Assembly: GCA_019661945.1 (NCBI GenBank)
Contig: JAIFWI010000003.1
Location: 1,126-65,125 of the forward strand
Direction of reading: 5' to 3'
Length of the DNA: 64,000 nt
Origin: Candidatus Parcubacteria bacterium
GTDB lineage: Bacteria; Patescibacteriota; Minisyncoccia; Phycocordibacterales; JAKAEA01
The position numbers and the translations under genes were made by a program. The notes below the pieces were generated by a model. That model had not been told where the DNA came from and made no database searches. It was given only the letters and a program-made list of their open reading frames with translations. How positions within the stretch are numbered: position 1 is the stretch's first letter; every line of letters begins with the position of its first letter. Of the stretch, positions 2,096 to 60,817 are shown piece after piece.

Positions 2096-2098
2096 GGG

Positions 2099-2127
2099 TT
2101 GACTTCGTGTATTTATTATGCTATTAT
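2099..2127 (+). promoter_or_regulatory. sigma70-like promoter (TTGACT-17-TATTAT) for a small GC-rich two-ORF module
   Basis: The -35 element is TTGACT at 2099-2104 and the -10 element is TATTAT at 2122-2127, with a 17-nt spacer. Confidence 0.35.
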
Positions 2128-2172
2128 ACATGAGGATCGCCGATACTCGTGCTCGTGAAAGGAGTACACCGA

Positions 2173-2268
2173 ATGAGCAAGAAGCTCTATGTTAGGTTCG
2201 ATCGTTGGAGTCTGGGACTCGTCATTGGACTCGTTGCCGCTCTGGTAGCGTGTTACCTCGCATCCTGA
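2173..2268 (+). CDS. 31-aa hydrophobic peptide (MSKKLYVRFDRWSLGLVIGLVAALVACYLAS)
   Basis: A Shine-Dalgarno site AAAGGAG lies 6 nt upstream of the ATG. The peptide has one predicted TM helix. The ORF is GC-rich compared with its flanks. It is too short to appear in the ORF track. Confidence 0.25.
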   Translation: MSKKLYVRFDRWSLGLVIGLVAALVACYLAS

Positions 2269-2280
2269 CACCGAGGACCA

Positions 2281-2439
2281 ATGACGAGATCAGAGACGGA
2301 AGACTTTCGTCACGACAAAGTCAATGAGATGAGAGCAAAAATCGCAGCCGGGACGGCCGAAATGCCGTTCAAGCTCGATCAAGCTCTCAATCGGCTTACT
2401 GCCGAACTCATGGATGAGTCCGAAGAAGAGCTCGGGTGA
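2281..2439 (+). CDS. 52-aa acidic protein with a weak resemblance to the FlgM anti-sigma C-terminal motif (KIAAGT...KLDQALNRL)
   Basis: A Shine-Dalgarno site GAGGA precedes the ATG. The gene is GC-rich. A hairpin (AAGCCG...CGGCTT) plus a T-run follows the stop codon. Confidence 0.3.
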   Translation: MTRSETEDFRHDKVNEMRAKIAAGTAEMPFKLDQALNRLTAELMDESEEELG

Positions 2440-2500
2440 TAGTTCAAACGAAGCCGTGTTCCTGGAGGACCGCGGCTTTCATTTTGCTATAATGTAGAGC

Positions 2501-4329: not shown

Positions 4330-4403
4330 GCGAGTATAGCTCAGGTGGTTAGAGCGCGTCACTGATAATGACGAGGTCCCAGGTTCGAGTCCTGGTACTC
4401 GCA
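4330..4403 (+). tRNA. tRNA-Ile (anticodon GAT)
   Basis: Manual cloverleaf: acceptor GCGAGTA/TACTCGC, D-arm GCTC-AGGTGGTTA-GAGC, anticodon stem CGTCA/TGACG with loop CTGATAA, and T-arm CCAGG-TTCGAGT-CCTGG. The discriminator is A and no CCA is encoded. Confidence 0.85.
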
Positions 4404-4557
4404 CCGTTGACATAATGGCCTCAAGTTGTATTATTACCTCGGAGTGTGACCGATAGTCTTTCAAGGAGGTGACCTATCACCCAATAGTCTGAGTCCGTCC
4501 AGAAAGATCGGAGCGTCCGGTCTTGCGATAAAGGAGTACGCATCTCTCGAGGATCTC

Positions 4558-4890
4558 ATGTCTAGCAGGAAGCATCTTTCCGAGGCCTCAGTGTTGTTTT
4601 CGTCGGGGACCTTTCTCAACCCGGACGTCAGGCGATGCCAGGCGCGTAACGAACCTCCGCCCAAGCGGAAGAACGTCTCGCCGGAACTCCGAAACTTCGT
4701 CAACCTCTCCGGGGATCTCGAAGGGTTGTACGGCGATGCCTCAGGGCTGCTCGGGGTCGCCTCCGGTTGCATCGGTGACTGCACCGGCAAGCGGGGCGAC
4801 GTAACTCACTACGGCGGCAGAATCGAAAACATGCCGCCGGATCGAATCGCTCGTGTCGTCTCATCAAGGGCGATGCGACAGGCAAGCTAG
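4558..4890 (+). CDS. hypothetical 110-aa protein in a GC-rich (~60%) island
   Basis: A Shine-Dalgarno site GAGGA lies 5 nt upstream of the ATG. GC3 is strongly elevated in this frame. A strong hairpin terminator follows on the same strand. The antisense ORFs share the wobble position and are less well supported. Confidence 0.35.
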   Translation: MSSRKHLSEASVLFSSGTFLNPDVRRCQARNEPPPKRKNVSPELRNFVNLSGDLEGLYGDASGLLGVASGCIGDCTGKRGDVTHYGGRIENMPPDRIARVVSSRAMRQAS

Positions 4891-4920
4891 GGGCCACATA
4901 CAAGGAGTGCTCTTCAGAAC

Positions 4921-4955
4921 GAAGCGCCGACACCACCGTCGGCGCTTCTCTCATT
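4921..4955 (+). terminator. rho-independent-type terminator hairpin (GAAGCGCCGAC-ACCACC-GTCGGCGCTTC)
   Basis: The stem is a perfect 11 bp, followed by a pyrimidine/T-rich tail. It lies at the 3' edge of the GC-rich island. Confidence 0.5.
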
Positions 4956-6456: not shown

Positions 6457-6523
6457 TTAAATAAGATCTTTACATTTTAGCAAATTGTGTTAATTTTGCT
6501 ACGGACCTAACAGGAGAACCACT

Positions 6524-7036
6524 ATGCCTCAAGAAGTTCTTAGTTCCAAGGAACACACAGATCTGGTTGAACACATTGTGGAGTATCTGAAAGAGAAGGG
6601 CAAATTCGATCCTGAGAAGCGGATGCGGATTACTGCAGAGGTTATAGGTACCACCGTAGAAGAGGTTAAAGTTCTCTCCTTGAGTTTAAAAAGGAAAGGA
6701 CCAGCTGGTGCACTAACCGAGAAGACGGATGAACCGATGAATGATGAGCGATGGGAAGAGATCCTTTCTGCTGGGTTACCAAAAGGCTGGAAAACAGAGT
6801 TGGTAAAAGAACTGCGAGCTCGCAACAATTCTGTATGGGAGAAAGATCTGCCCGAAAGATGTAAGGATGTCTATTATCCTCTTGGTGGAGGAGTTAAAAG
6901 TACCTTTGTAGCATACGGCAACTTTTATGGCTCCATGAAACATTGTGGACTGAGAGAGAAGTACAGGCTCATTCAACAGTGGGATCGTGCTCGAAGAGAT
7001 AGTTTGATAAAGATGGTTGTGTTGAAACCAAAGTAA
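6524..7036 (+). CDS. hypothetical protein (170 aa), moderately GC-enriched
   Basis: A Shine-Dalgarno site AGGAGA lies 6 nt upstream. A terminator follows. No domain was recognised. Confidence 0.6.
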   Translation: MPQEVLSSKEHTDLVEHIVEYLKEKGKFDPEKRMRITAEVIGTTVEEVKVLSLSLKRKGPAGALTEKTDEPMNDERWEEILSAGLPKGWKTELVKELRARNNSVWEKDLPERCKDVYYPLGGGVKSTFVAYGNFYGSMKHCGLREKYRLIQQWDRARRDSLIKMVVLKPK

Positions 7037-7066
7037 GGCAGCAACGGCTGGCCTTTTTTCTTTTTA
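7037..7066 (+). terminator. intrinsic terminator (AGGCAGC-AACG-GCTGGCCT followed by TTTTTTCTTTTT)
   Basis: Stem-loop with one bulge, followed by a T-tract. Confidence 0.55.
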
Positions 7067-7071
7067 AAATT

Positions 7072-7104
7072 CTTTACTCTTATATAAAATAGCCTATAGT
7101 AAAG
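7072..7104 (+). promoter_or_regulatory. promoter-like element (TTTACT-16/17-TATAGT), copy 1 of a 33-nt direct repeat; drives tRNA-Leu
   Basis: CTTTACTCTTATATAAAATAGCCTATAGTAAAG. The tRNA begins 9 nt after the -10 box. The sequence is 31/33 identical to 9746-9778. Confidence 0.5.
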
Positions 7105-7108
7105 GCAC

Positions 7109-7190
7109 GGGCACGTGGCGGAACTGGCATACGCGTACGTCTCAGAAGCGTATCCCGCAAGGGTTGAGGGTTCGACTCCCTCCGTGCCCA
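7109..7190 (+). tRNA. tRNA-Leu (anticodon CAG), type II with long variable arm
   Basis: Manual cloverleaf: acceptor GGGCACG/CGTGCCC, 3-bp D-stem with GG in the loop, anticodon stem TACGT/GCGTA with loop CTCAGAA, variable arm CCC-GCAA-GGG, and T-arm GAGGG-TTCGACT-CCCTC. Length is 82 nt without CCA. Confidence 0.8.
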
Positions 7191-7240
7191 CTCGAGAAGG
7201 CACAATTGAGATATGGTTCATTCTAGGCTAGAATATAGTA

Positions 7241-9103: not shown

Positions 9104-9174
9104 CTCAGCATATTGACTTTTTAATAAAAAGATGTTAGTATAGAAAAAGTTTAACAAAGAAGGGAGGCCAGACA

Positions 9175-9678
9175 ATGGCCCAAGAAACGACGACCCCACC
9201 GGTACCGGTGGCAGCAGCGCCAAAGCAGGGAGCCGCGGTGCTCCTGCGCTACGGCAACGACATGCTCCTGATGCTCCGGGACGATAAGCCCGGGCTTCCG
9301 AGCGCTCTTCAGTGGTCGGTCTTCGCCGGCGGCATCGAAGAGGGCGAGACGGCCGAGATAACCATCGGTCGCGAGCTCCGCGAAGAGCTCGGCGGTCAGG
9401 TCCAGGTTGAGAGGCTCGGCAAGACGCCGGCCAATACCTGGTTCACTGCTTCGATCACTGGCCAGCATGCGGCTAACCTCAAGCGAGGAGAGGGCTGTGG
9501 TCACGGCTTCTTCTCATTCGATGCCCTTGTCTGGATGAGCAAGATCGACGGTAAATTGGGACTCGGCGGCGCGATCAAGAAGTTCATGGAGCGCGCGCCT
9601 GAGGAAATCCGGATATTCCTCCAAAGTGGCCGGAATCCCAACCTCTCGGTACTCACCGGCATCATCGTCGAGCCGTAG
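9175..9678 (+). CDS. NUDIX hydrolase (GC-rich, ~63% GC)
   Basis: The Nudix box GGIEEGETAEITIGRELREELG matches GX5EX7REUXEEXGU. A Shine-Dalgarno site GGGAGG lies 6 nt upstream. Composition is strongly atypical for this genome. Confidence 0.8.
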   Translation: MAQETTTPPVPVAAAPKQGAAVLLRYGNDMLLMLRDDKPGLPSALQWSVFAGGIEEGETAEITIGRELREELGGQVQVERLGKTPANTWFTASITGQHAANLKRGEGCGHGFFSFDALVWMSKIDGKLGLGGAIKKFMERAPEEIRIFLQSGRNPNLSVLTGIIVEP

Positions 9679-9715
9679 CGCCTGAAGTACCTTCCGTTCC
9701 TGCGACACATGTCGC

Positions 9716-9741
9716 GCAGCGTCCCACACCCGGGACGCTGC
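9716..9741 (+). terminator. intrinsic terminator (GCAGCGTCCC-ACACCC-GGGACGCTGC, then TTTACTTTACT)
   Basis: Perfect 10-bp GC-rich stem downstream of the NUDIX gene. Confidence 0.6.
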
Positions 9742-13614: not shown

Positions 13615-14847
13615 ATGAAGCTCGAGCAGAAAGCATTAATCGGATTGAGCATTTTATTGGTCGCAACCTGCTTGAGTGTGTATGGTCTTATACCTTTTCT
13701 TGGGCATGATACCTATGTTCCTGATATTCAGGCTAAAGAGCAAAATATTCTTGCTTCGGTTTCAACGAGCACGCCTATTCCTCAGGTGCGGCATATGCCT
13801 GTACCTGCCCAAGTTAAATCACTCTATATGACAAGCTGTGTTGCTGGCACAAAGCAATTTAGAGCAGATCTTGTCGCTATCCTTGATACAACCGAACTTA
13901 ATTCGATCGTTATTGATATAAAAGATTTTACCGGCTTTTTATCATTCCGGCCCGAGGATCCAGCTCTTAAGGGTTTTTTGTCATCGCGCTGTTATGCTCC
14001 AGACATGAAAGAGTTTATTGCCTTGCTTCACGAGAAGGGTGTCTATGTTATCGGAAGAATTACGGTGTTTCAAGATCCGGCTTTCGTAAAACAATATCCT
14101 GAATTTGCTGTCCGACGAGCAAGTGACGGTGGTATCTGGGCTGATCGAAAAGGTATTAACTATCTCGATCCCGGAGCTAAAGGTGTCTGGGACCATATCG
14201 TCGCTATTTCAAAAGAATCCTATGCTATTGGTTTTGATGAATTAAATTTTGATTACATTCGTTTTCCTTCCGACGGTAATATGAGCGATATTGCTTTTCC
14301 TCATAGCCTTGGCCGTTCAAAGCAGGAGGTTTTAGAAGGTTTTTTCTCGTATTTAAATAGCCAGCTGAAACCTATTGGAGTAATGATGTCAGCTGATCTT
14401 TTTGGAATGACGGCTACAAATTATGATGATTTAAATATTGGCCAAGTCCTTGAACGCGCTTTACCGTATTTTGATTTCGTAGCGCCGATGGTTTACCCTT
14501 CACATTATCCGCCAAATTTTAATGGCTGGCCAAATCCAAATCTCGTACCATATGAGATTATAAAATATTCAATGGATAGAGCTGTAGCTCGAACAATTGC
14601 TACCACTACTCGTATTAAAACTTTTGGTTCCACACCAATTGCTTCTACATCACCACAACTCTATTCGAAGCCTGCTTTCAGTCAGTATAAATTGCGCACT
14701 TGGATTCAGGATTTTGACTATGGTGGCAATTATGACATACCTGAGGTTAAAGCTCAGATCCAGGCGACTTACGACGCAGGACTTAACTCTTGGATGCTGT
14801 GGGCACCTTCAAATCGCTATACACTCGGTGCACTTAACAAAGAATAG
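13615..14847 (+). CDS. putative glycoside-hydrolase-like TIM-barrel protein (GHL/DUF4015-type) with N-terminal signal/TM
   Basis: 410 aa with an N-terminal hydrophobic segment. The motif GFDELNFDYIRFP is typical of putative glycosyl-hydrolase-like families. Assignment is tentative. Confidence 0.5.
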   Translation: MKLEQKALIGLSILLVATCLSVYGLIPFLGHDTYVPDIQAKEQNILASVSTSTPIPQVRHMPVPAQVKSLYMTSCVAGTKQFRADLVAILDTTELNSIVIDIKDFTGFLSFRPEDPALKGFLSSRCYAPDMKEFIALLHEKGVYVIGRITVFQDPAFVKQYPEFAVRRASDGGIWADRKGINYLDPGAKGVWDHIVAISKESYAIGFDELNFDYIRFPSDGNMSDIAFPHSLGRSKQEVLEGFFSYLNSQLKPIGVMMSADLFGMTATNYDDLNIGQVLERALPYFDFVAPMVYPSHYPPNFNGWPNPNLVPYEIIKYSMDRAVARTIATTTRIKTFGSTPIASTSPQLYSKPAFSQYKLRTWIQDFDYGGNYDIPEVKAQIQATYDAGLNSWMLWAPSNRYTLGALNKE

Positions 14848-14903
14848 CTCATCGGTTACAATATAATCTGATCCTGTTCCGCGGGTTCAACCACGGAGGA
14901 GTC

Positions 14904-15116
14904 ATGGTCAACATGAATGCTATAGTGGACTTTGGTGAATCTTTGCCAGAGGAATTCCGACGAAAGGTTTTTTCTGGCCGAACTACAGACGAAATCAAGG
15001 AAAATGTAGTGAAGCATGTCGATAACCTGAAGCAGAAGGGAATCGATCTCAAGTTGCCTTACGATGATCAGGTAACCTATATTGCACACAGTCCTGCAAA
15101 AGTTAGCGCCGTCTGA
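14904..15116 (+). CDS. hypothetical 70-aa protein, moderately GC-enriched
   Basis: A strong Shine-Dalgarno site GGAGGAG lies 5 nt upstream. An intrinsic terminator overlaps the stop codon. Confidence 0.5.
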   Translation: MVNMNAIVDFGESLPEEFRRKVFSGRTTDEIKENVVKHVDNLKQKGIDLKLPYDDQVTYIAHSPAKVSAV

Positions 15117-15145
15117 ATGATAAAGACGGGCTTTTTTCTTTGATT
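15108..15145 (+). terminator. intrinsic terminator (CCGTCT-loop-AGACGG, then TTTTTTCTTTGATTTTTTT)
   Basis: Hairpin followed by a long T-tract. Confidence 0.6.
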
Positions 15146-35575: not shown

Positions 35576-35577
35576 TT

Positions 35578-36240
35578 TTACAAATTATCGCGTTGGTGGT
35601 AGTAGGCAATGAGCTCATCGAGTGTAGCGTGCGGCATATACCCAGTACCTGATCGGTCTTTGTATTTCTCGACCCTCTGGTACTCAGCGGCGATCTGGGT
35701 GAAGAGATTGCCAGCGATCGTCGGGCCATTCATGACCATCTTTACTGCCGGAATGCCCCAGTTCACAATCTTGGGGGTTAGGGCATAGACTTTCAGCTGG
35801 ACATTTCGTACCTCCATGACGTACACGATTTGAAGCATGCACCGCAGGAGATGCTCGGGTTGGCTCATAATTGTCAGACTATCCCATTCCTGCTCTAGGG
35901 CCAGGGTAATGAGATTATCGCACTCTGTGCCCGTATGAACTGACGGTGGAATGAACAGAATGTCGCTTTCTTCAACACTCAAGCTACGGAGCCGGTCGAG
36001 CCATGCCTCATAACCCCCATAGGCAATGCCATGCTTTTTGCATTCTGCCGCGGTCATCTTGTTCAGGACAAGGCGTTTCGTCAGTCTGCCATGGAGCATG
36101 TTTCGCCCCAGCTTCAGCTCGATGTCATTTAGTTCAGTCTTCATCACCCCATGGATGAATAAGGCATCAGTCCGTGGCTGCTGGTCGGTAAGGATAAGGA
36201 GCATCGCTTGCATCATCGAAAGGGGACTCGATTGATTCAT
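35578..36240 (-). CDS. DUF218 (YdcF/ElyC-like) domain protein, GC-enriched
   Basis: Its architecture resembles DUF218, including TIMSQPEHLLRCML. A Shine-Dalgarno site GGAGG lies 6 nt upstream. GC content is well above the neighbouring genes. Confidence 0.55.
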   Translation of the reverse strand: MNQSSPLSMMQAMLLILTDQQPRTDALFIHGVMKTELNDIELKLGRNMLHGRLTKRLVLNKMTAAECKKHGIAYGGYEAWLDRLRSLSVEESDILFIPPSVHTGTECDNLITLALEQEWDSLTIMSQPEHLLRCMLQIVYVMEVRNVQLKVYALTPKIVNWGIPAVKMVMNGPTIAGNLFTQIAAEYQRVEKYKDRSGTGYMPHATLDELIAYYHQRDNL

Positions 36241-36293
36241 GACAGACCTCCAGTATGGATTTCTGCGGAACTCTTTCCTGACTGTATAACAGA

Positions 36294-46361: not shown

Positions 46362-46366
46362 CTGCC

Positions 46367-46993
46367 ATGAAACATCTAACAGACCTTTTTCATCTCTTGG
46401 AAGTAACCCGGAAGCAACCCCAGTATGGTTATGCTTTGTGGGGCGGAGATATGAGACTTGGTAATCTTGCAGAACATCACTATTTAGTTACTATAATTGC
46501 TTGGCAGCTAGCTTCTGCAGTAAATACAAAAGGTGCGAAAATAGATATTCAGAAAGTCTTGGAATTTTGCCTTATTCATGACCTCGGTGAATTATTTGGA
46601 GGAGATGTAGGAATGCTTTATGCTCGTGCAAATCCTAAGGCTCGTGAATATGCTAAAAAATTTGAAGCTGAAAATCATATATATATCGGAAAGTTTTTTG
46701 GTAATCAACGTAGGCATTTTTTAGAATTATCAGAGGAAATATTAAATGCTGACTCGGATGAATCTCGAATTGCAAAGATTGCAGATTATTTAGAAATCAC
46801 TCACTATAAATTTTTCATGGAGAAATTTACTCAAACGGACATTGATTTAGTAGCTAAAAAGCTTCCAAATATGATTGACGGTATGAAGGATATTCTTGCT
46901 AAGAGAGAATTAAATAAATTTGTCAAGGAATGGCAGAAATCTATGAGCTCTTCAAAATCATATCGAGATACTATCAGTAAGATAATTAGGTAA
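46367..46993 (+). CDS. HD-domain phosphohydrolase (YfbR-like 5'-deoxynucleotidase family)
   Basis: H...HDLGE HD motif over 208 aa. Confidence 0.65.
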   Translation: MKHLTDLFHLLEVTRKQPQYGYALWGGDMRLGNLAEHHYLVTIIAWQLASAVNTKGAKIDIQKVLEFCLIHDLGELFGGDVGMLYARANPKAREYAKKFEAENHIYIGKFFGNQRRHFLELSEEILNADSDESRIAKIADYLEITHYKFFMEKFTQTDIDLVAKKLPNMIDGMKDILAKRELNKFVKEWQKSMSSSKSYRDTISKIIR

Positions 46994-47105
46994 TTGCTCA
47001 TTTTAGCTTCAAATAATAGGGCGAGCTATCTAAGTTGCCTTTTAGACAGTTTTATATAGTATAGGACTAGATTTATAGGGGGATAGTTCTTAACGGAGGA
47101 TCGCT

Positions 47106-47948
47106 ATGATCATGTCAGTTGATTTGGCTGCGGCAGGGCTGATCAATATCAGCTACCCGCTTCAAATTCGAGACAAGGTTGAACAGACTGTTCAGTCATG
47201 GAAATGGTTCTGCGAGCTTCACTCGGACATCAAAAAGAGTTTCGCCTACGAGAACGAGGGTAATCTCGATGGAGCCGGTTATGAGCTCAAACTCGATAAG
47301 GGCTCGACGAAGGATCTCAAGGAGGACTTCCACTACAATGAAAAGTCCTTTGACCGCCTCAGGCGTACAGCTAATGATTCGAAGGAACCACATGCCTTCT
47401 CCTTTATCTTTGATGCCAAGGATTTGGTCCAGGCTCTTACCTCGTTTGTTAGTGATTTTGCAGATGGTCTTGAGGGACTTCTTGATTTGCGGGGGTTTCG
47501 CCAAGAAGTGATTGATAGCCGGCCAAACTGGATTCTGCGCTCTCTGCATTACTTCGGTGATCGGCAGCCGGGAGAAATGTTGGCTACGCCGCATGCAGAC
47601 AAAAGCGGCTTCACGCTTCATCTCTTTGAGAGCCACCTGGGTCTCGAGTATCTGGACATGGCTACTCGTGCATGGAGAGAAATGCCCATGGCCGAAGGTC
47701 AGACGGTGATCATCAGCAATCAGCAGCTCCAGTATAAAACACAGGGGCGGTTGAAGGGCTTATGTCATCGAGTGATAGCGACCGAAGAGACCGCCAAGGT
47801 CGGGCGCTATTCCATGGTGTTATTTGTGCCTCTTCTGCAGACGCCGAAGTTTGACACAAGGGGCAAAGGTCGCCAGCAGGATTTGCCGCCCGGCTGGAAC
47901 TACGACATTAGCCATGAGGAATTTTCACAGTACTTTGAACCGCTGTAG
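47106..47948 (+). CDS. 2-oxoglutarate/Fe(II)-dependent dioxygenase superfamily protein, GC-rich
   Basis: HxD (TPHADKSG) and distal His (LCHRV) motifs of the 2OG-FeII_Oxy fold. A Shine-Dalgarno site GGAGG is present. GC is ~55%. Confidence 0.6.
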   Translation: MIMSVDLAAAGLINISYPLQIRDKVEQTVQSWKWFCELHSDIKKSFAYENEGNLDGAGYELKLDKGSTKDLKEDFHYNEKSFDRLRRTANDSKEPHAFSFIFDAKDLVQALTSFVSDFADGLEGLLDLRGFRQEVIDSRPNWILRSLHYFGDRQPGEMLATPHADKSGFTLHLFESHLGLEYLDMATRAWREMPMAEGQTVIISNQQLQYKTQGRLKGLCHRVIATEETAKVGRYSMVLFVPLLQTPKFDTRGKGRQQDLPPGWNYDISHEEFSQYFEPL

Positions 47949-47989
47949 CGCCTGACGTCCGTCTAGCGCTTTTTTTATAAGTATATCAC

Positions 47990-48870
47990 ATAGACACTTA
48001 GTGTCCAAATTTAACTCTATTTTATTATTTATTTATAAAGTTTTTAAGTTCAATTATCTATAATTCGTTGGACACTTAGTGTCTCAACTTATGAGAAATA
48101 TCGAACTTTCAGTCGGCAGTTACTATCATTTATTTAACCGAGGTGTGGATAAAAGATTAGTCTTTCTCGATCAAGATGATATCGGCCGGTTCCTTTTAAG
48201 TATGAACCTATTTAATTCGACTATTCCTCTAGGTAGTATCTACCAAAGTAATTTAGTGAAAAAGAAGGAAGAACGTGGACACTTAGTGTCCAAACCAGTA
48301 GAAAGGCTGGTTGAGTTTATATGTTATTGTCTAAATCCTAATCATTATCATTTCCTCATTCAACAGCTTGCTGATAAGGGAATAGAGAAATTCATGCACA
48401 AGCTCGGAAATGGATATACAAAATATTTCAATCATAAATACAAACGCACAGGCTCTCTATTCGGAGGAAATTATAAATCAGTTTTAATAAAGTCAAATGA
48501 ACAACTTTTACATACAAGTGCATACATAAATCTGAACAATAGGATTAGTGAAAAGGGAAGTATATTTGATCTATCTAAATCAAGCTGGGGCGAGTATATC
48601 TCTAATCAAGACGGAATATGCAATAAAGATATAATCCTTGAACAGTTCACTGATAGTCAGGTCTATAAGTCTTTTGCTGAGAGTTCCTATATAGATATTC
48701 AAGAAAGAAAAATACTAAGAAAAGAGCTTGAAATATGGGGAGTGGACACTTAGTGTCTATAAGCTATACTAAAGTTGTAACAAATCCCAATCCTATCCAG
48801 TTATAACAGGTGTAAAGGTCGGCAAAATGAACTAGTGGACCGGGATGGGTAGGGAAAACCCATCCTGTAA
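47990..48870 (+). mobile_element. RAYT/IS200-like element: HuH-Y1 transposase gene with four REP-like palindromes and a terminal hairpin
   Basis: The GGACACTTAGTGTCC-type palindrome occurs at 47993-48005, 48071-48083, 48278-48290 and 48744-48756. A strong hairpin lies at 48841-48867. Confidence 0.6.
48091..48753 (+). CDS. REP-associated tyrosine transposase / IS200-family TnpA-like (Y1 HuH)
   Basis: YYHLFNRGV N-terminal motif, HuH motif PNHYHFLI, and a Tyr-bearing GGNYKSVLI...YINLN region. One palindrome copy lies inside the ORF and one overlaps the stop. Confidence 0.7.
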   Translation: MRNIELSVGSYYHLFNRGVDKRLVFLDQDDIGRFLLSMNLFNSTIPLGSIYQSNLVKKKEERGHLVSKPVERLVEFICYCLNPNHYHFLIQQLADKGIEKFMHKLGNGYTKYFNHKYKRTGSLFGGNYKSVLIKSNEQLLHTSAYINLNNRISEKGSIFDLSKSSWGEYISNQDGICNKDIILEQFTDSQVYKSFAESSYIDIQERKILRKELEIWGVDT

Positions 48871-48878
48871 CCATATCA

Positions 48879-49436
48879 ATGGAAACCCATAAAGAAAAAA
48901 GTGATAGCGAATTATTGGCCCTGTCGGTCAATCACCCATCTGCCTTTGGCATTTTGGTTGACCGCTATCAGAAGGAATTCCTACGTAAAGTAACATTCAT
49001 TTTAAAAAATAAGGAAGAAGCCGAAGACATAGTCCAGGATGCTTTTGTAAAAATCTACACGCACGCTTCGAAATTTAAGGTTCAGGAAGGAGCCACCTTT
49101 AAATCCTGGGGCTACAAAATTCTTTTAAATACCTGTTATACCTACTGCAAGAAGAAGAAACGTGAACAGCAGTTTCGAGAATATATTGAAATCGATGCGG
49201 ATCTCGTGTTTTCAGAAAATGAATTTGAGAAAAAATTTGATCTTGATCAGACCTTATCAATTATTTCAAAAATCCCTGTGGCTTTAGCTCGAATGCTGAC
49301 CCTGACCTTGCTTGAGGGAAAAACGTACGAAGATATTGCTGAAATAGAAAATCTTACACCAGGCGCAGTCCGGACCAGAATGCATCGAGCTAAACGAGAA
49401 TTTGAAAAAATTCAACAAGAATATGCAAAGCCATGA
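48879..49436 (+). CDS. ECF-type sigma-70 family RNA polymerase sigma factor
   Basis: Region 2 (DIVQDAFVKIY...) and region 4 (LTPGAVRTRMHRAKREF) signatures. Confidence 0.8.
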   Translation: METHKEKSDSELLALSVNHPSAFGILVDRYQKEFLRKVTFILKNKEEAEDIVQDAFVKIYTHASKFKVQEGATFKSWGYKILLNTCYTYCKKKKREQQFREYIEIDADLVFSENEFEKKFDLDQTLSIISKIPVALARMLTLTLLEGKTYEDIAEIENLTPGAVRTRMHRAKREFEKIQQEYAKP

Positions 49437-49749
49437 ATTAAAGCAAAATATTATGCGCCGAGTATATACAGTCTATCTATTAAAGACTGTTGCTCAGCCG
49501 CTCCTCTTTGAACTAGCGCTCATTGCGGCTTTTATTGGTGTAGCAGCTTTCTTTATATCACTCAAGAGTGTTTTAGTGAATGTGTACTCGATCCATGATA
49601 TTGAAGCTGTTGGGCAGTTTCTTTTTTCAGCATTTATTGAGACTCAGATTGTGGTCAAAACTATTGTCGTCGGTGTCTTTATGACGCTCGTCGTGTTTAT
49701 CTACGATTCGGTCAGACGTATCCGTCGGGCCTGGGCTTATCGAACATAA
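49423..49749 (+). CDS. putative membrane anti-sigma factor (two TM helices)
   Basis: It overlaps the sigma gene by 14 nt and has hydrophobic helices. Assignment is positional. Confidence 0.45.
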   Translation: MQSHELKQNIMRRVYTVYLLKTVAQPLLFELALIAAFIGVAAFFISLKSVLVNVYSIHDIEAVGQFLFSAFIETQIVVKTIVVGVFMTLVVFIYDSVRRIRRAWAYRT

Positions 49750-49762
49750 GACAAAACAAAAA

Positions 49763-49790
49763 AACCGAGATGACTCGGTTTTTTTGTTTG
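49763..49790. terminator. bidirectional intrinsic terminator (AACCGAG-ATGA-CTCGGTT with flanking A- and T-runs)
   Basis: It lies between convergent genes. Confidence 0.6.
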
Positions 49791-49794
49791 AGAA

Positions 49795-50031
49795 TTACAT
49801 GCTGATACGGCGAGCTTGTCCGCCCATTTTGCCGATACGAGCCATGTGATCACGATTTTGGCTGACTTTCTGTCCGCCTTTTCGTCCGGCTTCGCGAGCT
49901 TCTTCAGGAGTAAATTCATGGGCAGTACCTCTTTCGTGTGCTGCTTTTCCACCCCGTGAAGCAATCTCTTTCTGCCGCAATGGATCCATGCTTGCAAATC
50001 CTCTGTCTTCGGTTGCGTAATATATTGCCAT
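49795..50031 (-). CDS. KGG-repeat stress-induced protein (general stress protein YciG/GsiB-like)
   Basis: Repeated ...RGGKA.../...KGGQ.../...MGGQ... motifs. An alternative start at 49989 has a better Shine-Dalgarno site. Confidence 0.6.
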   Translation of the reverse strand: MAIYYATEDRGFASMDPLRQKEIASRGGKAAHERGTAHEFTPEEAREAGRKGGQKVSQNRDHMARIGKMGGQARRISM

Positions 50032-50130
50032 ATTTCTAAAAATTATCTACTGGAGTCCCATATTCATGAGACCTCTTACTAGAGGACGTATGAAAGCCCC
50101 AACACTTTCTTGTGCTATAGTACCAGTGTT

Positions 50131-51233: not shown

Positions 51234-53147
<1,914 letters not shown>

Positions 53148-53224
53148 GGGTTCTCCTTGTGTACGGTGCCGATGTAACACTATAAATTTTCCCAGAAAGA
53201 GTCAATATGCTACATTGAAAATAT

Positions 53225-57567: not shown

Positions 57568-57573
57568 ACCAGA

Positions 57574-58545
57574 ATGGCATTTATAGATGAATTACGTTTC
57601 CGAGCTGTAGCCGGAAGGGGAGGTAATGGTGTTGTCCGATGGCGCCACGAAAAAGGCAAGGAGTTTTCTGGTGCCTCGGGTGGTAATGGCGGCAAAGGCG
57701 GCGACATATTTGTTCAGGCTGTTCGCGATATTCAACTTCTGGCAAAGTATAAACATAAGAAAGGATTTTTCGCAGGCCATGGTGATCCTGGTCAGCGTGA
57801 TAGCAAGCATGGCAAGAACGGTGAAGATACTATTATAGATCTGCCTATTGGTTCAATTATTACCAATCTTGATACAGGCAAAAAATACAATTTAATTAAA
57901 GAAGGCGAGAAAATCCAAGTGCTTAAAGGCGGTCGCGGAGGCCTCGGCAATGAACATTTTAAAGCTTCGACCAATACGACACCATATCAATCAACCCCTG
58001 GGGTCGAAGGTGAGCAGGCACATTTTTATATTGAACTTGAACTGGTGGCAGATGCCGGCCTTATCGGTCTACCAAATGCAGGTAAATCGAGTCTCCTAAA
58101 TGAATTAACAAATGCCAAATCAAAAGTGGCCAATTATGAATTTACCACACTTGATCCAGCTCTCGGAAATATGGAGGGTTTTATTGTCGCAGACATTCCC
58201 GGACTTATCGAAGGCGCTTCATCTGGAAAAGGTTTGGGTCACAAATTCTTGCGTCATGTGCGCAGAACTAAATTATTGCTTCACTGCATTTCACTTGAAC
58301 AAGAAGATTTGAAATCAGTCTACAAAGCCATTCGGGCAGAACTTAAAGCTTTCGATCCTGAGTTAACCAAAAAACAAGAAGTCATTATTTTAACAAAAAC
58401 AGATACAGCTTCAGTCAAAAAAATAGAAAAAGAAGTGAAGACATTTAAAAAACTTCAGGAGCATGTCTTTACCGTTACTATTTTAGATGACAAATCTGTT
58501 AAAGATCTGAAGGATAATTTAATTAAAATTTTAAGAAAAGTCTAA
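57574..58545 (+). CDS. obg: GTPase Obg (short form lacking C-terminal domain)
   Basis: N-terminal Gly-rich Obg fold and GTPase motifs GLPNAGKSSL, DIPG and TKTD. Confidence 0.88.
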   Translation: MAFIDELRFRAVAGRGGNGVVRWRHEKGKEFSGASGGNGGKGGDIFVQAVRDIQLLAKYKHKKGFFAGHGDPGQRDSKHGKNGEDTIIDLPIGSIITNLDTGKKYNLIKEGEKIQVLKGGRGGLGNEHFKASTNTTPYQSTPGVEGEQAHFYIELELVADAGLIGLPNAGKSSLLNELTNAKSKVANYEFTTLDPALGNMEGFIVADIPGLIEGASSGKGLGHKFLRHVRRTKLLLHCISLEQEDLKSVYKAIRAELKAFDPELTKKQEVIILTKTDTASVKKIEKEVKTFKKLQEHVFTVTILDDKSVKDLKDNLIKILRKV

Positions 58546-58567
58546 GAAATATGCTAGGATAGCCTTT

Positions 58568-60025
58568 ATGAAGGAATACTATACAACCATAGGCCTTGAA
58601 ATACATGCTGAATTGAAGACCAAGACCAAGATGTTTTGCAATTCCAAGAATGATCCGGATGAAAAACAGCCGAATGTGAATGTCTGTCCGATTTGTATGG
58701 GTCATCCGGGGACTTTGCCGGTTATTAATAAAGAAGCAGTTAAGCATGTCTTGAAAATGGGTGTAGCTTTGAATGGACAACTGGCAGATTTTACGGAATT
58801 CGATCGTAAGAATTATTTCTATCCAGATATTCCAAAAAGTTATCAGCTTTCGCAATATAAATATCCGCTAGTCTCCGGTGGGGAATTACATGGTATTAAA
58901 ATTACTCGTGTACATCTCGAAGAAGATACGGGCACCTCACAGCATGAAGGTGATCATAGTTTGGTCAATTATAATCGTGCGGGAGTGCCGCTTATGGAAC
59001 TTGTCACTGAGCCGGTGATTCATACCGCTGAAGATGCCGTTAACTTTGCTAAAGAATTACAACTCTTACTCCGCTACATTGGTGCAGGTGAAGCCAACAT
59101 GGAAAAAGGTGAAATGCGAGTTGAAGCGAATATTTCTGTCAGCGATGATCCGAAAAAATTTGGCACAAAGGTTGAAGTCAAAAATTTAAACTCTTTTCGG
59201 GCAGTCGAGCGGGCAATTGCTTATGAAGTCGAACGTCATACAGAGGCCTTAGAAAAGGGCGAGAAAATAGTTCAAGAAACTCGCGGTTGGAATGAAACAA
59301 AAGAGCAGACCTATTCCCAGCGTACTAAAGAAGACTCACACGACTACCGCTATTTTCCTGATCCAGATTTACCAAAGCTTTATATTAGTGAGATTCCGGA
59401 ATTTGAGAAAGATGTTTTAGAAAAAGAATTAGGAGAACTGCCGTGGGCTAAGCGAGAGCGGTACAAAAAAGAGTTTGAACTCAGAGATGAAGATGTTGAG
59501 ATTTATATTCAATCTCCAGAATGGGGACATTATTTTGAAGCTGTACTCCGAAATTTAGGAATTGAGTTCCTAAATCAATTTGGGAACTCAATTCCCAAGG
59601 ATAGGCAAATGGCTAAACTAGCTTCAAATTATATTAGTTCTGATTTATTGGGACTTGTAAAAAAAGAACCAGAATTTTGGCAGAAAAAGCCGATTGATGA
59701 TAAGCATTTTGCGGAATTAATAAAAATGCTTGGAGAAAATAAAGTTTCTTCACGCGGAGCAAAAGATATTTTAGCTTTGATGTATAAAGAGGGAGGAGAA
59801 CCGGCAAAAATTGCTCAAGAAAAAGGATTGTTACAAAAAAGTGACGAAGGGGAACTTAAAACTATTATCGAAAAAATTATTGCTGATAATCCAAAGGTTG
59901 TGGCGGATTATAAAGCAGGTAAAGAAGCTTCTCTTCAATTTCTCATCGGCCAAGGTATGAAAGCTACTAAGGGTTCAGCTAATCCTGAAGTTCTCAAGAA
60001 TTTATTCAAATCTACTTTAGGATAA
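58568..60025 (+). CDS. gatB: aspartyl/glutamyl-tRNA(Asn/Gln) amidotransferase subunit B
   Basis: YTTIGLEIHAEL N-terminus and the full GatB layout (485 aa). Confidence 0.9.
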   Translation: MKEYYTTIGLEIHAELKTKTKMFCNSKNDPDEKQPNVNVCPICMGHPGTLPVINKEAVKHVLKMGVALNGQLADFTEFDRKNYFYPDIPKSYQLSQYKYPLVSGGELHGIKITRVHLEEDTGTSQHEGDHSLVNYNRAGVPLMELVTEPVIHTAEDAVNFAKELQLLLRYIGAGEANMEKGEMRVEANISVSDDPKKFGTKVEVKNLNSFRAVERAIAYEVERHTEALEKGEKIVQETRGWNETKEQTYSQRTKEDSHDYRYFPDPDLPKLYISEIPEFEKDVLEKELGELPWAKRERYKKEFELRDEDVEIYIQSPEWGHYFEAVLRNLGIEFLNQFGNSIPKDRQMAKLASNYISSDLLGLVKKEPEFWQKKPIDDKHFAELIKMLGENKVSSRGAKDILALMYKEGGEPAKIAQEKGLLQKSDEGELKTIIEKIIADNPKVVADYKAGKEASLQFLIGQGMKATKGSANPEVLKNLFKSTLG

Positions 60026-60123
60026 TTCAACCAAACGAAAACCCCCATTGACTGCTGAACAAAAATCAATGGTGATTTTCGTTCCCCAGTTGGGGGTTGG
60101 GTCAGCTTACGCTGATGGTTGTA

Positions 60124-60705
60124 CTACTTGCAGAACATCAGAGCGATGATTTGGCGCCGCAAGATGACCTTCTCCATCATGCTGATGAACTCCTCGGGTT
60201 TGAGGTGAATGCCGTAGGTCGCGAATAGCACCTCGGGCTCCATCGTTATGGAGATCTTGGGGTCGAAGAACTCCGACGCCGAGATGCCGGACATCTCCAT
60301 GACGACGTTCGTCAATTGGCGGTTGATGTTGATCTCGACACTGCGGTCTCGATCCCATCCGGGGAAGGCCGCGGCCAGTTTGTCTTTGGCCCTGTCCCAT
60401 TTCTCCTCCATGCCGTCGTTGAAGCCGAGGCTGTAGTTCCCACCGACGGCGTCGCGGATTTTGTCGAAGAACACTTGGAGCGTCCCGCGGCACTCGCTGA
60501 TGGAGGGGACATGGAGTTCGTGCAGCTCGAGGCCGATCGCCTGTAGCTCTTGGACGTGTCGCACAATGGGGACAATGCGCCTGAACAGCTCCTCATTGTG
60601 TGCGAGGATCGCCCAGAAGTCCTTGTCAGCGCCTGCCTTCCGACCAGTGATGACCGCTTCCCAAACGACGCCCATGTCCTTGCCGAAATCGGATGATGAT
60701 GCCAT
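60124..60705 (-). CDS. hypothetical protein, GC-rich (~57%)
   Basis: A Shine-Dalgarno site AGGAGG lies 7 nt upstream of the ATG at 60705. No domain was recognised. Confidence 0.5.
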   Translation of the reverse strand: MASSSDFGKDMGVVWEAVITGRKAGADKDFWAILAHNEELFRRIVPIVRHVQELQAIGLELHELHVPSISECRGTLQVFFDKIRDAVGGNYSLGFNDGMEEKWDRAKDKLAAAFPGWDRDRSVEININRQLTNVVMEMSGISASEFFDPKISITMEPEVLFATYGIHLKPEEFISMMEKVILRRQIIALMFCK

Positions 60706-60817
60706 GAGGCACCTCCTTGAGTTGTGACACACCCCGTTGAGCAACACGCTCGTCAGGACGCACCATGGTTATCTATTTCAATTATATCACATATATCATA
60801 TAAGTCAAACGTGGTGA

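What the first reader, a model, noticed from the sequence alone, without database searches (positions are those of the whole stretch)
2098..60750. Scattered GC-rich single-gene islets, each with a canonical Shine-Dalgarno site and its own hairpin terminator, in an otherwise SD-poor low-GC genome
At least seven short segments are far more GC-rich than their flanks: 2098-2490, 4440-4955, 9175-9745, 35578-36240, 47106-47960, 52458-53147 and 60124-60705. Segments 6524-7036 and 14880-15150 are weaker cases. Each carries one or two small genes with a strong SD 5-8 nt upstream (GGAGG, AAGGAG or GAGGA) and a GC-rich intrinsic terminator. The neighbouring housekeeping genes (pyk, murD, murC, eno, gpmI, obg, rfbF) have no recognisable SD and several look near-leaderless. 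The products are accessory-type: a NUDIX hydrolase, a 2OG-Fe(II) oxygenase, a DUF218-like protein and ORFans. Composition together with translation signals argues for repeated acquisition of single-gene cassettes from a high-GC donor. A high-GC host bacterium is one speculative source.
Basis: partly seen in the sequence, partly recalled or inferred. Interest (0 to 1): 0.7.

Follow-up and report, generated by a model that had tools for sequence, protein, structure and literature searches.

The report
Foreign GC-rich gene cassettes in Parcubacteria
A small, low-GC candidate-phyla-radiation bacterium whose ribosomes have probably lost the usual mRNA-docking sequence carries at least ten tiny self-contained gene units of foreign composition that still bear the classical docking signal, most likely picked up one at a time from other, GC-richer ultra-small bacteria and not from a host.

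Summary
Forty-five host genes have GC3 0.334±0.036 (max 0.408). The listed segments carry ORFs with GC3 0.42-0.81. Canonical Shine-Dalgarno (SD) motifs precede every islet ORF, but none was found by a motif scan plus inspection at about 48 host gene starts.

Each islet is an autonomous unit: leader with SD, one or two small ORFs, and a hairpin with a U-tract. Seven also have a sigma-70-type promoter. I found a tenth islet (KGG stress protein, 49795-49989). The GC-rich stretch 60852-61304 is RNase P RNA, not part of an islet.

The host is a Parcubacteria (CPR) bacterium. All ten relatives whose 16S 3' end I could read lack the anti-SD, a loss already published for a Parcubacteria subgroup.

The closest relative (enolase 88% identical) is syntenic and lacks the four islets that can be compared. 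In that relative eno and gpmI are 4 nt apart, where the window holds a 700-nt cassette.

The named homologues are Patescibacteria proteins. The unnamed ones lie in contigs with CPR-style signals or gene content. Islet genes combine high GC3 with low GC1/GC2, as genes of GC3-rich relatives do.

Verdict: single-gene horizontal acquisitions ("moron-like" cassettes), probably from other Patescibacteria. A high-GC host as donor is not supported.

Unexplained: the SD persists on an ameliorated NUDIX cassette in another anti-SD-less genome.

The parts
2099..2485 (+). Islet 1: promoter, two SD-led small ORFs (31-aa membrane peptide 2173-2268; 52-aa FlgM-like 2281-2439), terminator
   Evidence: Promoter TTGACT-17-TATTAT at 2099-2127. 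SDs AAGGAG and GAGGA. GC3 0.56 for both ORFs. Hairpin 2450-2479 plus U-rich tail, -21.3 kcal/mol, z -3.7. FlgM match is below the Pfam cut-off (E 2.5e-4).
4407..4950 (+). Islet 2: promoter directly after tRNA-Ile, orphan perfect SD (4463-4472) with no ORF, 110-aa ORF 4558-4890, terminator. Possibly decaying.
   Evidence: Promoter TTGACA-16-TATTAT, 11 of 12. Frame supported by GC3 0.73 > GC1 0.58 > GC2 0.51. 11-bp GC hairpin 4921-4948, z -3.7. No Pfam, PHROG or NCBIfam hit.
6500..7065 (+). Islet 3 (weak): SD-led 170-aa ORF 6524-7036 and a weak terminator, just upstream of tRNA-Leu
   Evidence: SD ACAGGAGA. GC 0.439, GC3 0.415, just above the host maximum of 0.408. Hairpin plus U6, z -0.9. No family hit.
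9113..9741 (+). Islet 4: promoter, leader with SD, NUDIX hydrolase 9175-9678, terminator
   Evidence: TTGACT-17-TAGTAT at 9113-9141 and hairpin at 9716-9741. Fold z -6.1. PF00293 E 5e-10. GC 0.619, GC3 0.756.
14834..15138 (+). Islet 5 (weak): promoter, SD-led 70-aa ORF 14904-15116, terminator
   Evidence: TTAACA-17-TACAAT. SD ACGGAGGAG. GC3 0.465. Hairpin plus U6, z -2.3.
35543..36308 (-). Islet 6: promoter overlapping the end of the upstream gene, SD-led 220-aa remote DUF218-like ORF 35578-36240, terminator. Lies inside a minus-strand sugar-nucleotide operon.
   Evidence: TTGACA-16-TACAGT at 36308-36281 and SD CTGGAGGT, read. GC3 0.62. Hairpin plus U-tract, z -2.1. 236 homologues in the representative library; one remote homologue passes the DUF218 cut-off and one falls below it.
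47090..47977 (+). Islet 7: SD-led 2OG-Fe(II) oxygenase 47106-47948 and terminator
   Evidence: SD ACGGAGGA. PF03171 E 3e-8. GC3 0.591. Hairpin plus U7, z -2.5. Lies in a 3.7-kb block absent from L001.
49758..50030 (-). Islet 8 (not in the finding): SD-led 64-aa KGG-repeat stress protein 49795-49989 and strong terminator
   Evidence: PF10685 E 3e-13. SD ACAGAGGA. Terminator AAAAAAACCGAGTCATCTCGGTTTTTTT. The surrounding 150-nt windows (49789-50024) are 0.496 GC. Absent from L001.
52520..53205 (-). Islet 9: promoter, SD-led 229-aa membrane/coiled-coil ORFan (53147 down to 52458), terminator. Inserted between eno and gpmI.
   Evidence: TTGACT-17-TAGTGT at 53205-53177 and SD CAAGGAGAA, read. GC3 0.55. 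Hairpin plus U7 at 52553-52520, z -1.7. L001 has eno TAA-AAG-ATG gpmI at this site.
60040..60808 (-). Islet 10: promoter, SD-led 193-aa ORFan 60124-60705, large terminator shared with gatB
   Evidence: TTGACT-16-TATAAT at 60808-60781 and SD CAAGGAGGTG, read. GC3 0.814. Hairpin z -5.3. In L001 about 25 nt separate the gatB stop from the rnpB promoter; the window has about 780 nt more.
60852..61304 (+).
   Evidence: RF00010, 75.9 bits, E 3.5e-23, below the gathering score of 100. The homologous GC-rich segment is present in L001.
4330..4405 (+). tRNA-Ile(GAT), immediately followed by islet 2 and preceded by a decayed partial copy of itself (4254-4329)
   Evidence: The partial duplicate was read and shown as repeats.
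7109..7191 (+). tRNA-Leu(CAG), immediately after islet 3
7066..7107 (+). Left copy of a ~38-nt direct repeat (promoter TTTACT-16-TATAGT). The right copy is at 9742-9781. Together they bracket tRNA-Leu, two ORFs and the NUDIX cassette.
   Evidence: blastn 33 nt at 94%. Alignment. Both copies scored as promoters.
46362..50105 (.). 3.7-kb variable block absent from L001: HD-domain protein, islet 7, IS200-like Y1 transposase, ECF sigma factor plus 115-aa ORF, islet 8
   Evidence: Synteny. Junction sequences. Pfam.

Best explanation
The window comes from a Parcubacteria (CPR/Patescibacteria) chromosome. Its own genes are low-GC and start either leaderless or without a Shine-Dalgarno site, because the lineage's 16S rRNA has lost the anti-SD. 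Between these genes sit at least ten small autonomous transcription units. Each has a leader with a canonical SD (up to AAGGAGGTGA), one or two small accessory ORFs with GC3 0.42-0.81, and an intrinsic terminator. Seven also have a sigma-70 -35/-10 promoter. The products are a NUDIX hydrolase, a 2OG-Fe(II) oxygenase, a KGG stress protein, a remote DUF218 relative, a FlgM-like peptide and several ORFans.

They are individually acquired foreign genes, comparable to phage 'morons' but located in a chromosome. They lie exactly in intergenic spacers and next to stable-RNA genes, at sites that are variable in the clade. Some arrive with or create an outward promoter for the displaced downstream gene (gpmI, rfbF-like).

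The most likely donors are other Patescibacteria with GC3-richer genomes. The spread of GC3 reflects different donors and/or different degrees of amelioration.

Shown: composition, signals, cassette anatomy, absence from the nearest relative, a Patescibacteria label on the homologues that carry a source name.

Inferred: direction of transfer, donor identity, that this genome's own 16S lacks the anti-SD, and that insertion is by illegitimate recombination after DNA uptake (no integrase, att site or shared repeat was found).
For: GC3 of islet ORFs is 0.415-0.81, against 0.334±0.036 (max 0.408) for 45 host genes.

SD at all 11 islet ORF starts; none found at about 48 host starts.

Promoters and terminators: and the sequences.

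L001 (eno 88% identical, syntenic over 39.6-63.8 kb) lacks islets 7-10. In L001 eno and gpmI are 4 nt apart, and about 25 nt separate the gatB stop from the rnpB promoter.

The eno-gpmI gap holds different genes in L002 (SD-led), L004, L006 and L098, and is empty in L001, L007 and L008. The site of islet 5 holds a pilin gene in L008.

The 16S 3' tail is GGA(A/U)NAUUUCAA in 8 of 10 relatives and GGAUUAAUUCAAU in the other two. None has CCUCC at the tail or within 260 nt downstream. This agrees with PMC9297842.

Homologues. The 2OG family (40 hits) includes three hits named Candidatus Paceibacterota. Copies are host-like in L093 and L097 but islet-like in L092. The ORFan homologue in L089 is again a promoter / AAGGAGGTG / terminator cassette, with GC3 0.47 against 0.30, lying between prfA and rpsB.

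Signature of high GC3 with low GC1/GC2. The three islet ORFs of at least 190 aa without a family-specific amino-acid bias (ORFan 60124-60705, DUF218-like, 2OG) have GC1 about 0.56 and GC2 0.34-0.36. L131 pyk has GC1 0.51, GC2 0.35, GC3 0.84 and is 75% identical to the window's pyk N-terminus. Genes of L088 show the same pattern.

Published survey: 83% of single-gene transfers into Patescibacteria come from other Patescibacteria (PMC12455944).
Against: A NUDIX cassette with the same architecture lies in the same pyk...murD neighbourhood of L081, which also lacks the anti-SD. There its GC3 is host-like (0.37) and its identity to the window's copy (53%) matches that of the flanking housekeeping genes (48-59%). 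This looks vertical. It would need either allelic replacement in the window's lineage or two insertions at one hot spot.

In L081 the SD survives although the composition is ameliorated. A useless relic should not survive that long.

No donor closer than 65% identity was found, so no transfer is dated or directly traced.

Only four of ten islets could be checked against a close relative.

The GC3-rich relatives that match the islet signature (L131; L088 by its SD-less genes) themselves belong to the SD-less group. They therefore do not explain where the SDs come from.

Most homologues carry no taxon label.
Confidence: 0.62

Rival explanations
1. The cassettes were captured from a classical high-GC, SD-using non-CPR bacterium, for example the epibiont's host.
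For: Canonical long SDs (AAGGAGGTGA at 4463, CAAGGAGGTG at 60705) fit an organism with a normal 16S tail. High-GC islet codon usage correlates with 57-58%-GC contigs such as L090 (r 0.80). L090 and L091 carry a 45%-identical homologue of the ORFan next to ftsZ. The ftsZ assignment is my reading of the sequence.
Against: No homologue found carries a non-CPR label, and the named ones are Patescibacteria. GC1 about 0.56, GC2 about 0.35 and GARP/FYMINK 0.77-0.89 are those of low-GC proteomes, not high-GC bacteria. The closest NUDIX relative sits in a contig (L088) whose other genes lack an SD, as in this clade. No phage or plasmid vehicle was found.
Confidence: 0.1
2. Not recent transfer. SD-led small accessory genes are a long-standing, selectively maintained class in anti-SD-less Parcubacteria, and their high GC3 in this genome results from a gene-specific process or selection.
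For: The NUDIX unit has a conserved promoter, leader and (A/G)GGAGGCCA SD in the window and in L081, and a weaker AGGACGGTA in L088. It sits near pyk and murD in both the window and L081. GGAGGTG is conserved among ORFan homologues that are only 45-50% identical. L081 (anti-SD-less) has four SD-led small genes (2310, 4734, NUDIX at 5097, 7155) with GC3 0.29-0.37, at or below the range of its housekeeping genes. SDs of at least 6 nt are mildly enriched at ORF starts in relatives (8 of 301 against 1.06% in the control, p 0.016). Single housekeeping genes can be GC3-rich in relatives (L131 pyk 0.84; L098 eno and gpmI 0.53-0.60).
Against: Four islets are simply absent from the syntenic closest relative, with tight native junctions. 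The families are patchy and sit in different contexts in different genomes. No process is known that raises GC3 from 0.33 to 0.8 in one gene only. Outside the window, the SD-GC3 association is not significant (p 0.10).
Confidence: 0.15
3. Assembly artefact: reads from GC-richer organisms were chimerically joined into a metagenome-assembled contig.
For: The contig comes from a metagenome-assembled genome: the NCBI protein labels say 'Candidatus Parcubacteria bacterium', on an 80,003-bp contig. No read data were available to me.
Against: There are ten insertions. Each begins and ends in an intergenic spacer, carries a complete unit, and leaves the flanking genes and their promoters intact. Islet-like cassettes of related families, ORFan and 2OG, occur in independent assemblies (L089, L092).
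Confidence: 0.03

Closest known systems
Phage 'morons' (Hendrix/Juhala concept; from my own knowledge): an extra gene with its own promoter and terminator and deviant base composition, inserted between two genes of a prophage
   Same: Same anatomy. Own sigma-70 promoter in seven of ten, own factor-independent terminator, one or two ORFs, composition unlike the neighbours, inserted exactly between neighbouring genes that are adjacent in a relative.
   Different: The setting is a bacterial chromosome among housekeeping genes (eno/gpmI, gatB/rnpB, secA), not a phage. No phage genes were found, nor PHROG hits beyond generic NUDIX/2OG, nor relatives in viral contigs.
Individually transferred genes between Patescibacteria (Gios et al., mSystems 2025, PMC12455944)
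   Same: Single-gene horizontal transfer into streamlined CPR genomes, predominantly from other Patescibacteria (83% of events). The named homologues of the islet genes here are also Patescibacteria proteins.
   Different: That survey detected transfers by phylogeny among co-occurring MAGs. A term search of its text found no mention of Shine-Dalgarno. The window's density, ten units in 64 kb, is also high.
Anti-SD-lacking subgroup of Parcubacteria (Tsurumaki et al., RNA 2022, PMC9297842)
   Same: Relatives of this genome have a 16S 3' tail without CCUCC, and host genes have no SD. This matches the published loss in about half of Parcubacteria.
   Different: The passages I read state the loss and do not mention SD-led genes. 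Here a minority class of accessory cassettes in such genomes keeps canonical, sometimes 9-10-nt, SDs.
Classical genomic islands and integron cassettes
   Same: Deviant composition, accessory cargo, and some tRNA adjacency (islets 2 and 3; the L092 2OG copy lies next to what looks like a tRNA 3' end).
   Different: The units are 0.3-0.9 kb, not over 10 kb. There is no integrase. No attC-like or other sequence is shared between islets. Each unit has its own promoter, whereas integron cassettes are promoterless.

Membership tests
Phage moron | Own promoter and own intrinsic terminator around a single extra gene | tested here: met
   Consensus promoters for islets 1, 2, 4, 5 and 6, 9, 10 (read). 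Hairpin plus U-tract for all ten. No clear promoter for islets 3, 7 and 8.
Phage moron | Base composition different from the neighbours | tested here: met
   GC3 0.415-0.81 against 0.334±0.036.
Phage moron | Located in a phage or prophage genome | tested here: not met
   Neighbours are pyk, murD, eno, gpmI, gatB, secA and rnpB. No phage-specific PHROG hits, only generic NUDIX families and one unannotated family matching the 2OG protein. No viral relatives.
Horizontally acquired gene (compositional plus phyletic criteria) | Atypical composition and codon usage | tested here: met
   RSCU of the high-GC islets against host: r -0.46.
Horizontally acquired gene (compositional plus phyletic criteria) | Absent at the syntenic site of close relatives | tested here: met
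   Islets 7-10 are absent from L001. Islets 1-6 could not be tested because no close syntenic relative was found.
Horizontally acquired gene (compositional plus phyletic criteria) | Gene tree incongruent with species tree, donor identified | tested here: inconclusive
   The window's NUDIX pairs with the copy in the 53%-GC contig L088 (65%), not with the syntenic L081 copy (52%). There are too few labelled sequences to build a species-tree comparison.
Anti-SD-lacking Parcubacteria | 16S rRNA 3' end without CCUCC | not testable with these tools
   The window has no 16S gene. Ten relatives, including ones 75% (pyk) and 75-76% (eno) identical, all lack it. The trait is inferred for this genome by bracketing.
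Anti-SD-lacking Parcubacteria | Housekeeping genes without SD; leaderless starts common | tested here: met
   No SD found at about 48 host starts. TATAA is the top upstream 5-mer in the clade (59 of 308 genes). 7 of 48 host genes pass the strict leaderless test.
Integron gene cassette | attC recombination site shared by cassettes; promoterless; IntI integrase nearby | tested here: not met
   No similarity shared between islets beyond chance, apart from one promoter repeat. The cassettes have their own promoters. No integrase was seen among the window proteins I scanned against Pfam, which were not all ORFs.
NUDIX hydrolase (PF00293) | Pfam score above the gathering cut-off | tested here: met
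   39.8 bits against 21.1.
2OG-Fe(II) oxygenase (PF03171) | Pfam score above the gathering cut-off | tested here: met
   34.1 bits against 23.
DUF218 (PF02698) | Pfam score above the gathering cut-off | tested here: inconclusive
   The query and its five closest scanned homologues have no hit. Remote homologue P0130 passes (30.9 against 27.6) and P0100 is weak.
FlgM anti-sigma factor (PF04316) | Pfam or NCBIfam score above the cut-off | tested here: not met
   21.7 bits against 25. 18.1 against 40.75.

The most novel reading that the evidence does not exclude
In Parcubacteria that have lost the anti-SD, canonical SD-led cassettes are not mere relics. They would be a maintained, separately translated class of accessory genes. 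The motif is conserved among homologous cassettes in at least three genomes whose other genes lack an SD: the window, L081 and L089 (anti-SD loss was read directly from the 16S only in L081). It includes one copy whose synonymous sites are fully ameliorated. That would imply SD recognition without the 16S tail, or expression by a different translation apparatus, for instance in a partner cell.
Probability: 0.1. Interest if true: 0.85.

Novelty: new variant of a known kind. Interest (0 to 1): 0.45.

Why it matters
It gives a clean, sequence-readable marker of gene influx into CPR genomes: a canonical SD plus high GC3 in a genome that has neither. It shows that such streamlined genomes take up genes as tiny ready-to-run units at recurrent intergenic hot spots.

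It also raises a concrete, testable question about translation initiation. What happens to SD-led messages in cells whose ribosomes have no anti-SD, and why does the motif persist on at least one long-resident cassette?

If the motif proves functional, the current view that SD helices do not form in these bacteria would need revising.

Tried and rejected
1. Structured RNAs as the cause of the GC peaks. Rfam and ARAGORN find only two tRNAs. A permissive scan of islet 2 finds nothing. Only 60852-61304 is an RNA, RNase P.

2. An altered SD/anti-SD pair (UGAAAU pairing with the new 16S tail). This is not enriched upstream of 308 clade genes. The only upstream signal is the -10 box.

3. Phage, plasmid or defence origin. 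There are no PHROG hits beyond generic NUDIX/2OG, no relatives in viral contigs for three islet proteins, and only weak sub-significant PADLOC matches.

4. A common mobile-element signature. All-against-all blastn of the ten islets with flanks found no shared ends, inverted repeats or att-like sequences. The one exception is a ~38-nt promoter repeat at 7066-7107 / 9742-9781.

5. Exact look-up of the window's own contig failed, so habitat and the rest of the genome were not obtained.

6. Cluster look-up gave no taxon names for the closest homologues.

7. PDB sequence searches for the 220-aa and 193-aa proteins gave nothing below E 0.6.

8. A stricter SD measure (at least 6 contiguous nt of TAAGGAGGTGATC) missed GGGAGG-type sites and mis-set starts, so it under-counts the window. 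I use it only for the relatives.

9. pyk-based relatives in metagenomes (L098 and others) were not syntenic with the left half of the window, so islets 1-6 have no presence/absence test.

Full report
**What the window is.** Pfam confirms pyk, murD, murC, eno, gpmI, obg, gatB, secA and an rfbF-like nucleotidyl transferase. The best enolase relatives in species-representative genomes are all CPR MAGs labelled Saccharibacteria, Parcubacteria, Berkelbacteria or Nomurabacteria. The window's own NUDIX, ORFan and 2OG proteins are recorded at NCBI as 'Candidatus Parcubacteria bacterium' on an 80,003-bp contig. Overall GC is 40.5%.

- All seven main segments are GC peaks of 0.50-0.63 against a background near 0.39.
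- GC3 separates them completely. 45 host genes of at least 150 aa have GC3 0.334±0.036 (max 0.408). Islet ORFs have 0.415-0.814.
- A mechanical scan for SD cores 3-11 nt before a start codon hits the true start of every islet ORF (the KGG gene). No host start shows an SD on inspection.
- Promoter-like sites with -35 and -10 boxes are found for seven islets (sequences).
- All ten have a hairpin followed by a U-tract. Four have shuffle z-scores of -3.7 to -6.1. The KGG terminator was read from the sequence.
- Host genes frequently have a -10 box 6-9 nt before the ATG (7 of 48 by a strict rule, against 5.8% of all ATGs). TATAA is the most enriched upstream 5-mer in the clade (59 of 308 genes).

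**Corrections to the finding.**
- In 4440-4955 the perfect SD AAGGAGGTGA (4463-4472) has no ORF behind it. The probable gene is 4558-4890. Its frame is supported by GC3 0.73 > GC1 0.58 > GC2 0.51. This unit may be decaying.
- The GC-rich tract continuing to 61302 is RNase P RNA (60852-61304, 75.9 bits, below Rfam's gathering score of 100).
- A tenth islet was missed: a 64-aa KGG-repeat stress protein (49795-49989, minus strand) with SD and a strong terminator.
- The GC peak at 475-842 is a Pro/Ser/Thr-rich host protein with GC3 0.29.

**Why the genome is SD-poor.** Ten related loci contain the 16S 3' end. They include relatives at 75% pyk identity and 75-76% eno identity, and the genome that carries the syntenic NUDIX gene. 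Helix 45 is followed by GGA(A/U)NAUUUCAA in eight of them and GGAUUAAUUCAAU in two, where the canonical tail is GGAUCACCUCCUUA. None has CCUCC within 260 nt downstream. Tsurumaki et al. (PMC9297842) already reported that a subgroup of Parcubacteria lacks the anti-SD motif (detected in only 48% of Parcubacteria). The window has no 16S gene, so for this genome the trait is inferred. The lack of any SD at its host genes fits. I tested whether a new motif complementary to the altered tail (UGAAAU) replaces the SD, and it does not.

**Comparative evidence for insertion.** L001 (eno 88% identical, 36% GC) is collinear with window 39.6-63.8 kb. Its only GC-rich segment there is rnpB.
- In L001 the eno stop and the gpmI start are 4 nt apart (TAA-AAG-ATG). 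The window has about 700 nt there, carrying islet 9 on the opposite strand.
- In L001 about 25 nt separate the gatB stop from the rnpB promoter. The window has about 780 nt more, which is islet 10.
- Between secA and the next gene, L001 has 31 nt including a promoter. The window has a 3.7-kb block with an HD-domain protein, islet 7, an IS200-like transposase, an ECF sigma factor and islet 8.
- The eno-gpmI gap is a recurrent variable site. It is empty in L001, L007 and L008. It holds an SD-led 153-aa gene in L002, a GC3-rich 191-aa gene in L098, and other cargo in L004 and L006.
- The site of islet 5 holds a pilin gene in L008.
- All three stable-RNA genes in the window (tRNA-Ile, tRNA-Leu, rnpB) have an islet next to them.
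- No relative syntenic with the left half of the window was found, so islets 1-6 lack a presence/absence test.

**Where the genes come from.** Homologues are few.
- NUDIX has 8 hits, the ORFan 3, 2OG 40 (word-seeded search). The 220-aa protein has 236 hits by a full HMMER scan of cluster representatives, a more sensitive method, so that count is not comparable with the others.
- The homologues that carry a source name are Patescibacteria proteins.
- The 2OG gene is embedded in an aminoacyl-tRNA-synthetase operon with host-like GC3 in L093, and is host-like in L097. Its closest relative (54%, L092) is again an SD-led gene with GC3 0.51 among genes at 0.25-0.30.
- The ORFan homologue in L089 is a complete cassette (promoter, AAGGAGGTG, terminator; GC3 0.47 against 0.30) between prfA and rpsB. 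Another homologue lies in 58%-GC contigs next to what I read as ftsZ.
- No relative was found in viral contigs, and no phage or defence family matches.

**The composition signature.** Apart from NUDIX, whose whole family is Gly/Ala/Arg/Pro-rich, the islet proteins tested (ORFan, 2OG, DUF218-like) have host-like amino-acid make-up (GARP/FYMINK 0.77-0.89). Their GC1 is about 0.56 and GC2 about 0.35, while GC3 is 0.6-0.8. By my own expectation from general knowledge, not tested here, a classical 60-65%-GC organism would have GC1 about 0.66 and GC2 about 0.47.

This signature is seen in L131. Its pyk fragment is 75% identical to the window's and has GC1 0.51, GC2 0.35, GC3 0.84 (the output is off by one frame and re-read here). 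Its 16S lacks the anti-SD. The same signature appears in L088, which carries the closest NUDIX relative and whose other genes have no SD. In L098 the eno-gpmI block is GC3 0.53-0.60 against 0.32-0.47 elsewhere.

GC3-rich lineages or segments therefore exist within the clade and are plausible sources. This agrees with the published finding that 83% of single-gene transfers into Patescibacteria come from other Patescibacteria (PMC12455944). It argues against a high-GC host as donor.

**What does not fit.** The NUDIX unit has a homologue in L081-L087.
- It lies in the same neighbourhood (pyk, a 65-aa ORF, NUDIX, murD).
- It has the same architecture: TTGAC(A/T)-17-(-10 box), leader, (A/G)GGAGGCCA, ATGGCC.
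- Its GC3 is host-like (0.37).
- Its protein identity to the window's copy (53%) is like that of the flanking genes (48-59%).
- L081's 16S also lacks the anti-SD.

A canonical SD thus persists on a compositionally resident gene in an anti-SD-less genome. L081 has three more SD-led small genes. Either these units turn over often, including arrivals from low-GC SD-using donors and allelic replacement at hot spots, or the motif is under selection for a reason unrelated to the 16S tail. The GC3-rich relatives that match the islet signature are themselves SD-less, so they do not explain the origin of the SDs. In relatives, SDs of at least 6 nt are only mildly enriched at ORF starts (8 of 301 against 1.06%, p 0.016). 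The SD-GC3 association is not significant once the window is excluded (p 0.10).

**Mechanism, as far as it can be read.** Each islet is an autonomous transcription unit dropped into a spacer between host units. Several are antisense to the flanking operon (islets 8-10). Their terminators also serve the upstream host gene. The insert between eno and gpmI provides a -10-like box (TACATT) 8 nt before the gpmI ATG. In L001 gpmI is 4 nt from eno and so presumably co-transcribed. I found no integrase, att site, target duplication or common end sequence. The only repeat is a ~38-nt promoter duplication bracketing tRNA-Leu, two ORFs and the NUDIX unit. Insertion by illegitimate recombination after DNA uptake is my inference, not shown.

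**Comparison with what is known, and verdict.** The anatomy is that of a phage 'moron', but the setting is chromosomal and no phage is involved, so membership fails on that feature. Single-gene transfer among Patescibacteria and the loss of the anti-SD in a Parcubacteria subgroup are both published.

In the two papers I consulted I found neither of two points. First, the combination: canonical-SD, GC3-rich, promoter-to-terminator cassettes at recurrent intergenic hot spots in an anti-SD-less genome, ten of them in 64 kb. Second, the puzzle that the SD persists.

I rate this a new variant of a known kind, of moderate interest. The cassette-acquisition reading is supported. The high-GC-host source is not.

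Noticed in passing
window 60852-61304 (+): RNase P RNA, class A, scores only 75.9 bits, below Rfam's gathering score of 100 (E 3.5e-23). The default scan therefore misses it. It appears to be a divergent CPR-type rnpB.
   Followed up: partly
window 4254-4329: A decayed partial copy of tRNA-Ile lies directly upstream of the intact gene. It keeps the 5' 16 nt and 17 nt of the anticodon/variable region, with a perfect 10-bp GC hairpin in between. Relative L083 has two intact tandem tRNA-Ile genes.
   Followed up: partly
window 7066-7107 and 9742-9781: A ~38-nt direct repeat (promoter TTTACT-16-TATAGT) brackets a 2.7-kb segment containing tRNA-Leu, two host-GC ORFs without family hits, and the NUDIX cassette. 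This may be a duplication or insertion scar.
   Followed up: partly
window 4463-4472: A perfect 10-nt SD (AAGGAGGTGA) has no usable start codon or ORF downstream. It looks like the remnant of a dead cassette gene.
   Followed up: partly
window 52458-52545 (-): The islet 9 ORF has no stop before its own terminator. It reads through the terminator and overlaps the 3' end of eno by 65 nt on the opposite strand.
   Followed up: no
window 48879-49749 and 2281-2439: An ECF-type sigma factor (Sigma70_r2 plus r4_2) with an overlapping 115-aa ORF lies in the L001-absent block, convergent with the KGG stress gene. Islet 1 encodes a weak FlgM-like (anti-sigma) peptide. This may be imported regulatory wiring.
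   Followed up: no
window 47993-48009 and 48067-48083: Two copies of a small palindrome (GACAC-TTA-GTGTC) flank the AT-rich region in front of the IS200-like Y1 transposase gene (48079-48753). The arrangement resembles REP/IS200-type hairpins.
   Followed up: no
window 1057-2095: A membrane protein that I read as glycosyltransferase-like is split into two overlapping ORFs (1057-2070 and 1766-2095). This is a frameshift, a pseudogene or a sequencing error.
   Followed up: no
window 150-866: A Pro/Ser/Thr-rich low-complexity protein gives a GC peak (0.51) and a strong negative GC skew, yet has host-like GC3 (0.29). It is a compositional false positive for island detection.
   Followed up: yes
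L131 2504-3007; L098 1-3073: Housekeeping genes of relatives can themselves be GC3-rich. pyk in L131 has GC3 0.84 with unchanged GC1/GC2. The eno / 191-aa / gpmI block in L098 has GC3 0.53-0.60 against 0.32-0.47 elsewhere. This suggests large GC3 differences or exchange of core alleles within this clade.
   Followed up: partly
L081 1-50, L083 ~650-710, L099-L102, L105, L131, L009, L012: In all ten relatives the 16S rRNA ends GGA(A/U)NAUUUCAA or, in two, GGAUUAAUUCAAU, with no CCUCC within 260 nt. In several, 16S, tRNA-Ile and pyk are linked. The window has no 16S near its tRNA-Ile and pyk.
   Followed up: yes
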